A stretch of 7,154 nucleotides of DNA from a virus (IMGVR_UViG_3300014682_000009), one strand, 5' to 3'. Numbered from the stretch's first letter, positions 2,116 to 7,115 are shown. Translations and numbers: made by a program. Notes: generated by a model from the letters alone, not told the origin.

Positions 2116-2456
2116 CAGTGAGTGACCTCTTCAAAGGTACAGTTAAAATCGGTATACATGGCATTATCCGAAATGCTCCACTCCCTGCAGACAACCCGGA
2201 CAGTCCTGTTGTGTTTTGGCGGACGCCACAAAAAAGCACGAATCCCGGCATGACGGGATAAAAAACTGTCCAGCGCGGCACGGGAATATTCATCTGTGAC
2301 ACGAAATACCGGTTTAAACGTTTTCAGATCCGCATTCAGACCACCAGCCCGTCGCTGTTCATATCCGTCACCAAACTTTACCGTAATAACTGATGGCTTT
2401 CGTGTCGTCTCCATCCCCTCACGGGGGATCCAGTTAAAAACTTCAGGCTCAGGCAC
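2115..2456 (-). CDS. M: Minor tail protein M (lambda gpM family); start uncertain between GTG 2456, ATG 2471 and ATG 2414
   Basis: Translation ...VKFGDGYEQRRAGGLNADLKT...FLWRPP... aligns with lambda gpM (VRFGDGYSQRAPAGLNANLKT...FLWTPP). GTG at 2456 has a strong GGAGGA SD 7 nt upstream (2469..2464) and overlaps the tape-measure stop by 8 nt. The ATG at 2471 sits inside that SD and has no SD of its own. The TTG at 2501 used by the ORF track is unlikely. Confidence 0.85.
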   Translation of the reverse strand: MPEPEVFNWIPREGMETTRKPSVITVKFGDGYEQRRAGGLNADLKTFKPVFRVTDEYSRAALDSFLSRHAGIRAFLWRPPKHNRTVRVVCREWSISDNAMYTDFNCTFEEVTH

Positions 2457-5682: not shown

Positions 5683-5692
5683 TCTCCGGACG

Positions 5693-5714
5693 AAAAAAAA
5701 CCGCCGAAGCGGTT
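5693..5714 (-). terminator. Terminator-like hairpin (UUCG tetraloop) with U8 tract in the T-H intergenic region
   Basis: Minus-strand RNA AACCGC-UUCG-GCGGUU followed by a run of eight U in total; lies between the T stop (5725..5723) and the tape-measure ATG (5682). Confidence 0.45.
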
Positions 5715-5722
5715 ATGTTGAC

Positions 5723-6411
5723 TCACTGAGACACTATTAAAAGCGCGTTTTCCAGTCCGGCAAATGGATCTGATACGCCTTCTGTCTGCTCCTTCTCCCA
5801 CTGAAGAAGCGCATCATTCAGTGGCACTTTGACCCCCTGCGCACCGTAAACAGCTGAAACAATCTGGGCAGCCCGGATATCAGCCCGTTCGTCCCCCAGC
5901 GGGCTGAACCTGTCAAATTCTGCCCACATCATGATTTCTGATGCGGACATTTCCCGGCGTAACTCTGACAATGTGCGCCCCATCCTGAGCGCCAGCATCA
6001 TCAGAAAACGCATCCCCGGAAGCTCTACTTTTTTTTAACCTCGCCGGCATCACTGATCAGTTCCAGAGACTGCCGAAGAAGCCGCGCATGCACCGGGCCA
6101 TACACGGCAATCACCTGTTCACGATCATCCTCTGAAAATACAGGTTGCAGTCCGGTATCACACAGAACATCAATGAACAGTTCAACATCTGCCTCCAGAT
6201 TTCGGCGGGCGCGCTCCGCAACGGATAACGGTGTCTCATCATCTTTTGCTTTAACGATCTCCTGCCAGCGCAACCAGGCTTCTGCAGAAGGTTCCCGTAA
6301 TACAACCGTTGCCCCTTCCCATTCAGGCACATCAACAGTTTTATGGCGAAACCCCGACATCGTTGCCAGTGCCAGATTGCGGATATTTTTAGTCATCACA
6401 TCTATCCTCAT
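5723..6411 (-). CDS. GT: G-T fusion chaperone produced by programmed -1 ribosomal frameshift (T segment 5723-6034 in the -1 frame)
   Basis: The 96-aa T ORF (5723..6013) is in the -1 frame relative to G. The -1 frame is closed by TAA at 6037..6035 and open from 6034, so the shift must occur in the heptamer at 6034..6028. Predicted junction ...GEVKKK|VELPGMRFLMMLAL... Confidence 0.85.
6025..6411 (-). CDS. G: Tail assembly chaperone G (lambda gpG functional equivalent)
   Basis: 128-aa acidic ORF immediately downstream of V (TAATG stop/start overlap at 6413..6409), ending ...GEVKKK-TAG with the slippery A_AAA_AAG at its last two codons; position and frameshift architecture are diagnostic of G. 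Confidence 0.88.
   Translation of the reverse strand: MRIDVMTKNIRNLALATMSGFRHKTVDVPEWEGATVVLREPSAEAWLRWQEIVKAKDDETPLSVAERARRNLEADVELFIDVLCDTGLQPVFSEDDREQVIAVYGPVHARLLRQSLELISDAGEVKKK
6028..6034 (-). other. Slippery heptamer A_AAA_AAG (X_XXY_YYZ) for the G-T -1 frameshift, abutting the G stop codon
   Basis: Minus-strand reading GAG GTT AAA AAA AAG TAG, part of an 8-A run (plus 6029-6036 is T8); the zero-frame stop TAG is at 6027..6025, directly 3' of the heptamer. Confidence 0.8.
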
Positions 6412-7115
6412 TAACTGACGGTAACAGTGCAGGAAGTGGAGGTCACCTTGTTAACAGGGCTTGCTGAATCAGAAATCTCGCAGGTATACGCACCGGCATC
6501 ACCTGATGCTGCTGATGCCTTACTGAATGTTGCCGCCGTCTGTCCGGAAACAGGAGAACTACCTTTCTTCCAGACATAAGAATAAGGCGGCACACCACCG
6601 GCAGCCTCAACCACCATTTCGAGTTTCGCTCCGGCAGAAACCTGCAGCGTGCTGTTTAAATCGACCTTCACTTTCAGCGGCTCTGTCGTCAGCACAGGTT
6701 TACCTTTCAGGCGCAGGGAAAACGTTGCAGCCACAACACCATTAGTTCCTGCAGACCAGGTATGCTGACGCACCTCTGCCATAAAGGTAAATCCGTTGCC
6801 TGACGGAAAAATAACTTTAAAGCCATACGTGGTGTCATTGTCATAGGCACTGCGCAACGCGTTCTGGGCAGCATTGAGGTAAAAGTTGCCTGACATGGAA
6901 ATCTCTGACGCGGCACCAAGGCCGTTAATATTTTCCTGCTCAACAGAACACAGCGTGGTGACATCAATATCCTGCTTTTGTCCTGCGGTAAACTGCACCT
7001 CTTTGATTGTACAGCTCAGGCCAAGATAGCTGGCAGAATCCAGGGTTTCTGCTGTTACCGGTGCAGACGAAATCATAATTTTCGTCAGTTGCGAACGCTC
7101 AAAATTAGAGGACAT
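6411..7115 (-). CDS. V: Major tail (tube) protein V with C-terminal Ig-like domain
   Basis: 234-aa ORF with a strong AGGAGA SD 5 nt upstream of the ATG at 7115, sitting immediately upstream of G/G-T. The C-terminal ~90 aa (…KVDLNSTLQVSAGAKLEMVVEAAGGVPPYSYVWKKGSSPVSGQTAATFSKASAASGDAGAYTCEISD…TVTVS) has the look of a bacterial Ig-like domain, as at the C-terminus of lambda gpV. The N-terminal domain is not lambda-like in sequence. Confidence 0.9.
   Translation of the reverse strand: MSSNFERSQLTKIMISSAPVTAETLDSASYLGLSCTIKEVQFTAGQKQDIDVTTLCSVEQENINGLGAASEISMSGNFYLNAAQNALRSAYDNDTTYGFKVIFPSGNGFTFMAEVRQHTWSAGTNGVVAATFSLRLKGKPVLTTEPLKVKVDLNSTLQVSAGAKLEMVVEAAGGVPPYSYVWKKGSSPVSGQTAATFSKASAASGDAGAYTCEISDSASPVNKVTSTSCTVTVS

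What the first reader, a model, noticed from the sequence alone, without database searches (positions are those of the whole stretch)
6011..6040. G-T programmed -1 frameshift uses A_AAA_AAG placed directly against the G stop codon
The sequence shows an 8-A run at the end of G (…GTT AAA AAA AAG TAG). The T ORF is in the -1 frame, and that frame is closed by TAA at 6037..6035, so the ribosome must slip within A_AAA_AAG (6034..6028). A conserved G-T frameshift is established for lambda-like tails, but lambda uses G_GGA_AAG as I recall; here the heptamer is the dnaX-type A_AAA_AAG, and the adjacent TAG could act as a pause-type stimulator. I found no convincing downstream stem-loop by eye.
Basis: partly seen in the sequence, partly recalled or inferred. 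Interest (0 to 1): 0.45.

Follow-up and report, generated by a model that had tools for sequence, protein, structure and literature searches.

The report
Phage tail chaperone G-T frameshift site
This is the usual "slippery" spot where a small share of ribosomes slip back one base at the end of a prophage tail-chaperone gene to make a longer fusion protein; it is real, but this type of site had already been described and measured in close relatives.

Summary
On the minus strand, gene G (Pfam Phage_TAC_1) ends GTT AAA AAA AAG TAG. The -1 frame is closed by TAA at 6037..6035 and then stays open for 101 codons that carry the Phage_tail_T domain. The frame change therefore has to happen within a 10-nt box that holds A_AAA_AAG.

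The interpretation, a programmed -1 G-T frameshift, is well supported but not unusual.
- The module is an HK97-type tail cluster of an E. coli prophage found in 901 of 5,426 complete genomes.
- Across 81 G/T loci of this family, A_AAA_AAG is the commonest slip site (48 loci), and a stop codon directly after the slip codon is the commonest layout (51 loci).
- An A_AAA_AAG_TAG cassette from a homologue whose G is 67-68% identical gave 7% frameshifting in an E. coli reporter (Antonov 2013). Sharma 2014 lists the ECs1801 tail-chaperone A_AAA_AAG cluster as a proven case.
- No downstream RNA structure was found, either in this sequence or conserved across relatives.
- The ATG at 6013 is not conserved.

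Two questions stay open: whether the adjacent TAG stimulates, attenuates or merely accompanies slippage, and whether RNA polymerase slippage on the 8-A run contributes. Interest is low.

The parts
6025..6396 (-). Gene G, the tail assembly chaperone: 123 aa plus the TAG stop. An alternative upstream ATG at 6411 would give 128 aa.
   Evidence: PF06222 Phage_TAC_1, E 2.8e-58. RefSeq annotates this start. GAGGA lies 8 nt upstream of the ATG at 6396.
6028..6034 (-). Slippery heptamer A_AAA_AAG, in phase with G.
   Evidence: The same heptamer sits at the homologous position in 48 of 81 family loci.
6029..6036 (-). Run of 8 A that contains the heptamer. It is a possible site of RNA polymerase slippage and a hotspot for indels.
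   Evidence: The A8 run is kept in 68 of 80 loci retrieved from viral contigs; 3 have A9 and 3 have A7.
6025..6027 (-). G stop codon TAG, directly 3' of the slip codon.
   Evidence: A stop is adjacent in 51 of 81 family loci: TAA 29, TAG 22, TGA 0.
6035..6037 (-). TAA in the -1 frame. It closes the T frame upstream and so defines the 5' edge of the 10-nt frameshift box.
5723..6028 (-). T-frame extension (-1 frame): 101 codons, VELPGMRF...IVSQ, plus the TGA stop. The G-T product is complement(join(5723..6028,6028..6396)) and is 224 aa.
   Evidence: PF06223 Phage_tail_T, E 4.4e-19. Translation. Codon-position entropy in homologues is 0.75/0.90/1.42.
6011..6013 (-). ATG in the T frame that gene callers could take as the T start. 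It is not conserved.
   Evidence: It is replaced by ATT, ATA or GTG in close relatives and by ACN, ATT, CTN or GTN in more distant ones.
6001..6003 (-). Back-up TGA in the G frame, embedded in T's conserved Leu-Met codons (CTG ATG), 24 nt after the slip codon.
   Evidence: A second 0-frame stop lies at +24 in 39 of 50 loci with an adjacent stop. It is the actual G stop in the Serratia-type clade.
6038..6042 (-). Shine-Dalgarno-like GAGGT, 3-4 nt 5' of the heptamer. It is probably incidental (codons Glu-Val).
   Evidence: It is absent in the 90%-identical clade, which has GAAGTTATT. It is closer than the 6-17 nt range used for -1 stimulators (PMC4066793).
5691..5714 (-). Terminator-like hairpin plus T-run between T and the tape-measure gene H. 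This is context, not part of the frameshift signal.
   Evidence: Comparable annotated terminators exist in the HK446 and HK542 records.

Best explanation
A small share of ribosomes translating G, probably a few per cent, slip back one nucleotide on A_AAA_AAG (6034..6028). tRNA-Lys re-pairs from AAG to AAA, and translation continues with GUA (Val) in the -1 frame. The result is a 224-aa G-T fusion with junction ...GEVKKK|VELPGMRF... All other ribosomes terminate at the adjacent TAG and make free G (123 aa). As in lambda and HK97, G coats the tape-measure protein H, and the rarer G-T recruits the major tail protein through its T domain. The fixed slip frequency sets the G:GT ratio.

Shown here:
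- the gene identities;
- the 10-nt slip box;
- conservation of a Lys-AAG slip site at this junction;
- translation of the post-stop segment in the -1 frame;
- the lack of a downstream RNA stimulator.

Shown by others: 7% frameshifting on the same heptamer+TAG cassette from a homologue.

Inferred: the frequency at this particular locus, the roles of G and G-T, and whether slippage happens as a two-tRNA event on the heptamer or as a P-site tRNA-Lys event while TAG waits in the A site.
For: - Gene identities: Pfam assigns G to PF06222 and the -1 frame to PF06223, flanked by a tail tube protein and an HK97-type tape measure, then M, L, K and I.
- Slip box: the -1 frame is closed by TAA immediately 5' of the heptamer and G stops immediately 3' of it.
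- Slip site in 81 family loci: A_AAA_AAG 48, G_GGA_AAG/C 9, G_GAA_AAG 8, and A_AAG tetramers next to a stop 14.
- Slip codon: AAG in 76 of 80 loci, while Lys codons elsewhere in the same G genes are AAA 309 to AAG 162.
- Translation after the stop: in loci with an adjacent stop, T-frame codons 2-10 after the slip show third-position variability (entropy 0.75/0.90/1.42) and a conserved Pro. They lie upstream of the first conserved Met, and many have no possible start codon.
- The ATG at 6013 is replaced in relatives.
- Experiment: Antonov 2013 Suppl. [quoted passage not shown] That cassette is identical to Stx2 phage 1717 (L004), whose G is 67-68% identical to this one. The G_GGA_AAG_CCG_TAA cassette gave 6%.
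- Sharma 2014 lists cluster A_AAA_AAG_25, ECs1801 tail assembly chaperone, as a true case.
- A-runs of only 3-4 nt in 31 of 81 loci with the same architecture show that ribosomal slippage is enough for the family.
Against: - There is no direct measurement for this locus.
- The bare heptamer gave only 0.29% in a reporter without stimulators (Sharma 2014 supplement). Something in the natural context may raise it, and I could not identify what.
- No downstream structure was found (z-scores -0.12, -1.10 and +0.78; RNAalifold predicted 0 pairs in 25 sequences). The SD-like GAGGT is too close to the heptamer and is not conserved.
- The 8-A run allows a transcriptional route to the same protein.
- Public annotation treats G and T as separate genes, and the exact fusion protein is absent from the 15-billion-sequence protein collection.
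Confidence: 0.85

Rival explanations
1. The main route is RNA polymerase slippage, not ribosomal slippage. RNA polymerase adds one untemplated A on the 8-A run. Ordinary translation of the resulting A9 mRNA reads GTT AAA AAA AAA GTA GAG..., which gives exactly the same G-T protein.
For: - The run is 8 A.
- Antonov 2013 classes A runs longer than 7 as prone to transcriptional realignment, and found that efficiency rose with run length (A7 10%, A9 40%, A11 63%) in another gene family.
- Baranov 2005 reports productive slippage on 8 A in some IS elements, and about 10% slippage on 8 A in human apoB.
- Some relatives have A9 (L084, L086, L161, Halomonas phage L010).
Against: - Run length is not conserved in the family: 3 (21 loci), 4 (10), 6 (5), 7 (32), 8 (10), 9 (3).
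- What is conserved is the phased Lys-AAG slip codon.
- Cassettes with A6 and with G_GGA_AAG gave 7% and 6%, so a long run is not needed.
- In many bacterial genomes, selection against A/T runs becomes evident only at 9 nt.
Confidence: 0.1
2. Slippage is ribosomal but mainly of the 'shifty stop' kind. With AAG in the P site and TAG waiting for RF1 in the A site, peptidyl-tRNA-Lys alone slips to AAA. The adjacent stop is then a selected part of the signal, and the G:GT ratio depends on RF1 activity.
For: - A stop directly follows the slip codon in 51 of 81 loci. This holds down to about 36% G identity, with at least 15 changes of heptamer type but only about 7 changes of adjacency on a neighbour-joining tree.
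- A second 0-frame stop already exists 24 nt downstream in 39 of 50 such loci, so the early stop is not needed for termination.
- All 14 loci with only an A_AAG tetramer have the stop adjacent. After removing duplicates this is 10/0 against 25/16 for heptamers, Fisher p = 0.02.
- U, which from my own recollection of E. coli termination-context studies is the strongest fourth base, never follows the adjacent stop in 42 unique contexts.
- Natural cassettes gave 6-7%, against 0.29% for the bare heptamer.
Against: - In a bacterial system, replacing the codon after a slippery heptamer with a stop lowered -1 frameshifting, and RF2 overproduction abolished it. In RSV the natural adjacent stop had no effect (PMC4373837).
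- 30 of 81 loci work without adjacency.
- The G_GGA_AAG_CCG_TAA cassette, with the stop one codon away, gave nearly the same 6%.
- The lineages are not independent, and the two reporter systems are not comparable.
- Adjacency could instead be selected to give G a clean C-terminus.
Confidence: 0.3
3. There is no recoding. T is made on its own by initiation or termination-reinitiation at the ATG at 6013 or 6001, as public annotation implies.
For: - RefSeq annotates T as a separate gene starting at the ATG at 6001.
- A Met at that position (the FLM motif) is conserved in most homologues.
- The G stop is only 12-24 nt upstream, which would suit reinitiation.
Against: - The ATG at 6013 is not conserved.
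- No conserved SD precedes either ATG.
- The 9 codons between the slip site and the conserved Met evolve as coding sequence in the -1 frame, with a conserved Pro and no start codon available in many lineages.
- A fusion product was seen for the homologous cassette.
- From my own knowledge, free T is not made in lambda (Levin, Hendrix and Casjens 1993).
Confidence: 0.04

Closest known systems
HK97-type tail assembly chaperone G/GT frameshift in E. coli O157 prophages and Stx phages (ECs1801 type; the Phage_TAC cluster of Antonov 2013 and cluster A_AAA_AAG_25 of Sharma 2014)
   Same: - Same Pfam families for G and T.
- Same gene order.
- Same heptamer A_AAA_AAG, followed directly by TAG.
- Same back-up TGA 24 nt downstream.
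- Same Val codon after the slip.
   Different: - G is only 67-68% identical.
- The A run is 8 rather than 6, because the preceding codon is AAA rather than AGA.
- The flanking sequences differ.
- This locus itself has not been tested.
Phage lambda G-T frameshift (Levin, Hendrix and Casjens 1993; Xu, Hendrix and Duda 2004, 2013, 2014)
   Same: - A -1 shift near the end of G into T, between the tail tube gene and the tape-measure gene.
- T belongs to PF06223 in both.
- The slip codon is Lys AAG.
- No downstream structure is known to be needed.
- The product ratio sets the tail assembly stoichiometry.
   Different: - Lambda G is a different Pfam family (PF06894).
- The heptamer is G_GGA_AAG.
- The G stop lies 15 nt after the heptamer rather than adjacent to it.
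E. coli dnaX -1 frameshift
   Same: Identical heptamer A_AAA_AAG, read by the single E. coli tRNA-Lys.
   Different: - dnaX has an SD-like element 10 nt upstream and a strong downstream stem-loop, and shifts at about 50%.
- Here neither stimulator is present.
- The expected level here is a few per cent.
- The shifted product here is longer, not shorter.
Transcriptional slippage sites (Thermus dnaX A9, IS elements with A9 or A8)
   Same: A homopolymeric A run at the junction of two overlapping frames. One added A gives the fusion.
   Different: The run is 8 here and varies from 3 to 9 in homologues. The conserved element is a phased slippery codon, not run length.

Membership tests
Tailed-phage G/GT tail assembly chaperone with programmed -1 frameshift (Xu, Hendrix and Duda 2004) | Two overlapping ORFs lie between the major tail protein gene and the tape-measure gene, with the second in the -1 frame. 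| tested here: met
   V (tail tube plus Ig domain), G, T and H (tape measure) are in that order on the minus strand, and T is in the -1 frame relative to G.
Tailed-phage G/GT tail assembly chaperone with programmed -1 frameshift (Xu, Hendrix and Duda 2004) | A slippery sequence in the overlap, in phase with G and conserved among homologues. | tested here: met
   A_AAA_AAG sits in a 10-nt box. A phased Lys slip site occurs at the same junction in 80 of 80 analysable loci.
Tailed-phage G/GT tail assembly chaperone with programmed -1 frameshift (Xu, Hendrix and Duda 2004) | The downstream ORF lacks its own conserved start, and the segment before its first Met is translated. | tested here: met
   The ATG at 6013 is not conserved. 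Entropy by codon position is 0.75/0.90/1.42 in the 9 codons after the slip. A Met further in (6001) is conserved, so separate initiation is not formally excluded.
Tailed-phage G/GT tail assembly chaperone with programmed -1 frameshift (Xu, Hendrix and Duda 2004) | A G-T fusion is made at a few per cent of G and is needed for tail assembly. | not testable with these tools
   Only a homologous cassette has been measured, at 7% (PMC3711429 Suppl. Table S2).
HK97-type chaperone family (Pfam PF06222 Phage_TAC_1 plus PF06223 Phage_tail_T) | Sequence membership above the Pfam gathering thresholds. | tested here: met
   G scores 195.7 bits against a cut-off of 25. T scores 69.1 bits against a cut-off of 25.9.
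Lambda G family (Pfam PF06894 Phage_TAC_2) | G matches PF06894. | tested here: not met
   The window's G matches only PF06222. Lambda G matches PF06894.
dnaX-type -1 frameshift signal | A_AAA_AAG heptamer. | tested here: met
dnaX-type -1 frameshift signal | An SD-like element about 10 nt upstream of the heptamer. | tested here: not met
   The only SD-like motif, GAGG, ends 4 nt before the heptamer and is lost in the 90%-identical clade.
dnaX-type -1 frameshift signal | A stable stem-loop a few nucleotides downstream. | tested here: not met
   Fold z-scores are -0.12, -1.10 and +0.78. RNAalifold predicts 0 pairs in 25 homologues.
Programmed transcriptional slippage | A homopolymer run of 9 or more (8 in some organisms), with its length conserved among homologues. 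| tested here: inconclusive
   The run is 8 A here and is kept in 68 of 80 loci retrieved from viral contigs. Across the family it ranges from 3 to 9. RNA-level data are needed.
'Shifty stop' recoding sites | A stop codon immediately 3' of the shift codon. | tested here: met
   TAG at 6027..6025 follows AAG at 6030..6028. A stop is adjacent in 51 of 81 family loci.
'Shifty stop' recoding sites | Shift efficiency depends on the stop codon and on release-factor level. | not testable with these tools
   Contrary published bacterial data are in PMC4373837.

The most novel reading that the evidence does not exclude
In the PF06222 chaperone family, the stop codon placed directly after the Lys slip codon may be a selected, functional part of the recoding signal. 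On this reading it provides a release-factor-dependent pause that lets P-site tRNA-Lys slip. It would explain three things:
- why bare A_AAG tetramers suffice in some lineages;
- why natural cassettes shift about 20-fold better than the isolated heptamer;
- why the early stop is kept although a back-up stop lies 24 nt downstream.

The G:GT ratio, and hence tail assembly, would then respond to RF1 activity in the host.
Probability: 0.3. Interest if true: 0.35.

Novelty: already known. Interest (0 to 1): 0.15.

Why it matters
It matters mainly for annotation. In 901 complete E. coli genomes, and in the related phage records, G and T are listed as separate genes. One phage record even splits the region into three fragments. 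The real second product, a 224-aa G-T fusion, is absent from the protein databases. Recognising the site lets annotators write the join correctly.

Biologically it adds no new principle. The one open point of some interest is whether the stop codon next to the slip site tunes the G:GT ratio. A one-nucleotide mutant could test this cheaply.

Tried and rejected
- Downstream stimulatory RNA: I folded 30, 60 and 100 nt 3' of the site, plus a 93-nt span across it. None was more stable than shuffles. RNAalifold on 25 homologues found no consensus pair. Rejected.
- dnaX-like upstream SD: SD-like 4-mers are enriched 4-9 nt upstream in about half of the unique family sequences, against 17% background. 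However, they coincide with Glu/Asp/Gly codons. The window's GAGG is only 4 nt away and is lost in a 90%-identical clade. Not accepted as a stimulator.
- Heptamer frequency as evidence: 2 observed against 1.1 expected, so it is not informative on its own.
- Independent T start at 6013: rejected because the ATG is not conserved.
- Exact G-T fusion protein in the 15-billion-sequence collection: not found. No annotated precedent exists for this exact protein.
- Xu et al. 2004 could not be read because it is not held. Statements about it come from papers that cite it and from my own knowledge.
- The first genome-contig query, with a 10-sequence alignment, failed for lack of conserved columns. A 7-sequence alignment worked.
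- The absence of TGA among adjacent stops: the non-adjacent TGAs turned out to be the built-in TGA inside T's CTG-ATG codons. That explains the non-adjacent TGA stops, but not why TGA is absent among adjacent stops.

Full report
**1. What is in the sequence**

The minus strand reads ...GAT GCC GGC GAG GTT AAA AAA AAG TAG AGC TTC CGG GGA TGC GTT TTC TGA TGA TGC....
- The upstream ORF ends with AAG at 6030..6028 and TAG at 6027..6025.
- The run of 8 A is 6036..6029.
- The in-phase heptamer A_AAA_AAG is 6034..6028.
- The -1 frame reads ...CRRG*KKVELPGMRFLMM.... It is closed by TAA at 6037..6035 and then open for 101 sense codons after the slip, down to the TGA at 5725..5723.
- Any passage from the upstream frame into the downstream one must therefore occur in a 10-nt box.

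**2. What the genes are**

- Pfam assigns the upstream ORF to PF06222 Phage_TAC_1 (E 2.8e-58) and the -1 frame to PF06223 Phage_tail_T (E 4.4e-19).
- The neighbours on the same strand are a tail tube protein with a C-terminal Ig domain, a 1,077-aa tape measure with the HK97 TLTM domain, and homologues of lambda M, L, K and I.
- The region is 98-99.7% identical to a prophage present in 901 of 5,426 complete E. coli genomes and to 11 phage records, including phi467, Evi and PhiR49_2.
- RefSeq annotates G (123 aa, from the ATG at 6396) and T (92 aa, from the ATG at 6001) as separate genes. One phage record cuts the region into three CDSs.
- The exact 224-aa fusion is absent from a 15-billion-sequence protein collection. 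G and the 92-aa T are each recorded on at least 1,000 contigs, and the 96-aa form of T on 778.

**3. Comparative survey**

I collected 81 G/T loci of this family. They comprise the window, ten phage records, two divergent viral contigs and 69 loci from one-genome-per-species contigs, with G identity down to about 27%.

| Feature | Result |
|---|---|
| T frame | -1 in all 81 surveyed loci; two further decayed copies (L116, L145) were excluded |
| A_AAA_AAG | 48 loci |
| G_GGA_AAG or G_GGA_AAC | 9 loci |
| G_GAA_AAG | 8 loci |
| Bare A_AAG tetramers | 14 loci |
| Slip codon | AAG in 76 of 80 |
| Lys codons elsewhere in the same G genes | AAA 309, AAG 162 |
| Stop directly after the slip codon | 51 of 81 (TAA 29, TAG 22) |

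Lambda itself, checked directly, has G_GGA_AAG with the stop 15 nt later. Its G belongs to a different Pfam family, PF06894.

**4. Is the -1 segment really translated through the junction?**

- In close relatives the ATG at 6013 is replaced by ATT, ATA or GTG. In distant ones it is replaced by Thr, Ile, Leu or Val codons.
- The nine T-frame codons between the slip site and the first conserved Met still show a coding pattern. Mean entropy at codon positions 1, 2 and 3 is 0.75, 0.90 and 1.42. A Pro at position 4 is nearly invariant.
- Many lineages have no start codon in that segment, so it can only be reached from G.

**5. Published experiments**

- Antonov et al. 2013 (PMC3711429) cloned two cassettes from their 'phage tail assembly chaperone' cluster, which is similar to HK97, into a GST-MBP reporter in E. 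coli.
- The first cassette is identical to Stx2 phage 1717 (L004), whose G is 67-68% identical to the window's.
- Sharma et al. 2014 (PMC4066793) list prophage cluster A_AAA_AAG_25, 'ECs1801, tail assembly chaperone', as a true frameshift case.
- The same paper gives the bare heptamer 0.29% without stimulators, 4.3% with the IS911 stimulators and 39% with the IS3 pseudoknot.

**6. Stimulators**

- Downstream RNA is no more stable than shuffled sequence (z -0.12, -1.10, +0.78).
- An alignment of 25 homologues has no consensus pair.
- The SD-like GAGGT ends 3-4 nt before the heptamer. This is inside the range where such elements are not expected to help a -1 shift. It is also lost in a 90%-identical clade.

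**7. The adjacent stop**

Several observations suggest it is more than an accident.
- Adjacency changes about 7 times on a neighbour-joining tree of 80 G-T proteins, while the heptamer type changes at least 15 times.
- A second G-frame stop, the TGA inside T's CTG-ATG (6003..6001 here), lies 24 nt downstream in 39 of 50 adjacent-stop loci. The early stop is therefore not needed to end G.
- All 14 tetramer-only sites have the stop adjacent. After removing duplicates this is 10/0 against 25/16 for heptamers, p = 0.02.
- U never follows the adjacent stop in 42 unique contexts.

Against a simple stimulatory role:
- A stop placed after a slippery heptamer lowered -1 frameshifting in a bacterial system and made it sensitive to release factor. 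The natural adjacent stop in RSV had no effect (PMC4373837).
- 30 of 81 loci do without adjacency.
- The cassette with the stop one codon away performed about equally.
- Selection for a clean G C-terminus is an alternative explanation.

I leave this open at about 0.3.

**8. Transcriptional slippage**

One untemplated A in the 8-A run would give the same protein.
- Runs longer than 7 A are counted as prone to this.
- Productive slippage on 8 A is reported in some systems.
- The family, however, keeps the architecture with A runs of 3-4 nt in 31 loci.
- Cassettes with A6 or G_GGA_AAG reach 6-7%.

It may add to G-T synthesis here but is unlikely to be the main route (about 0.1). The run is also an indel hotspot or a sequencing-error site. 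Three of the 80 viral-contig loci carry A7, which extends G to 160 aa in the wrong frame.

**9. Verdict**

It is a standard instance of a published class: the HK97-type G-T -1 frameshift on A_AAA_AAG next to the stop. Its practical value is in correcting annotation. The only mildly new angle is the comparative hint that the adjacent stop is functional.

Noticed in passing
window 6001-6003 (-): A back-up TGA in the G frame is built into T's conserved Leu-Met codons (CTG ATG), 24 nt after the slip codon. It is the real G stop in the Serratia-type clade. A second 0-frame stop lies at this +24 position in 39 of 50 adjacent-stop loci.
   Followed up: yes
L052, L057 and one sibling contig (viral contigs), at the position homologous to window 6029-6036: Three of the 80 viral-contig loci have A7 instead of A8. 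G then reads on for 160 aa in the +1 frame and T is out of reach. These are either homopolymer sequencing errors or inactivating indels at the run.
   Followed up: partly
L084, L086 (viral contigs, G 76-78% identical): A variant site, GTT AAA AAA AAA TAG: an A9 run with heptamer A_AAA_AAA rather than ...AAG. This is the only family member whose slip codon is AAA.
   Followed up: partly
window 5691-5714 (-): A terminator-like hairpin, AACCGCTTCGGCGGTT followed by T6, lies between T and the tape-measure gene. It resembles terminators annotated in the tail-gene regions of HK446 and HK542.
   Followed up: no
family loci L093-L163 and phage records: Adjacent stops are TAA or TAG, never TGA. The fourth base is A (23), C (17) or G (2) and never U, in 42 unique contexts. 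This could reflect weak termination contexts, or constraints from T codon 2.
   Followed up: partly
family loci, 4-9 nt 5' of the slip site; window 6038-6042: SD-like 4-mers occur in 31 of 64 unique upstream sequences, against 17% of other 15-nt windows in G genes. They are confounded with Glu/Asp/Gly codons.
   Followed up: partly
window 6414-7115 (-): The major tail protein carries a C-terminal Ig-like domain (Pfam Ig_2/Ig_3, residues about 154-233). Its match to the tail tube families is only weak.
   Followed up: no
L116 (Serratia sp. L9) and L145 (Ca. Symbiopectobacterium): In L116 the T-like sequence lies in the +1 frame. In L145 G is truncated at 45 codons. Both are probably decayed prophage copies and were excluded from the counts.
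   Followed up: no
window 2230-2236 (+): This is the only other AAAAAAG in the window. It is on the strand opposite the tail genes and is consistent with chance.
   Followed up: no
window 6409-6413 (-): The V stop TAA overlaps an upstream in-frame ATG of G (TAATG). The RefSeq start is the ATG at 6396, which has a better SD. The choice of start changes the G-T length from 224 to 229 aa.
   Followed up: partly
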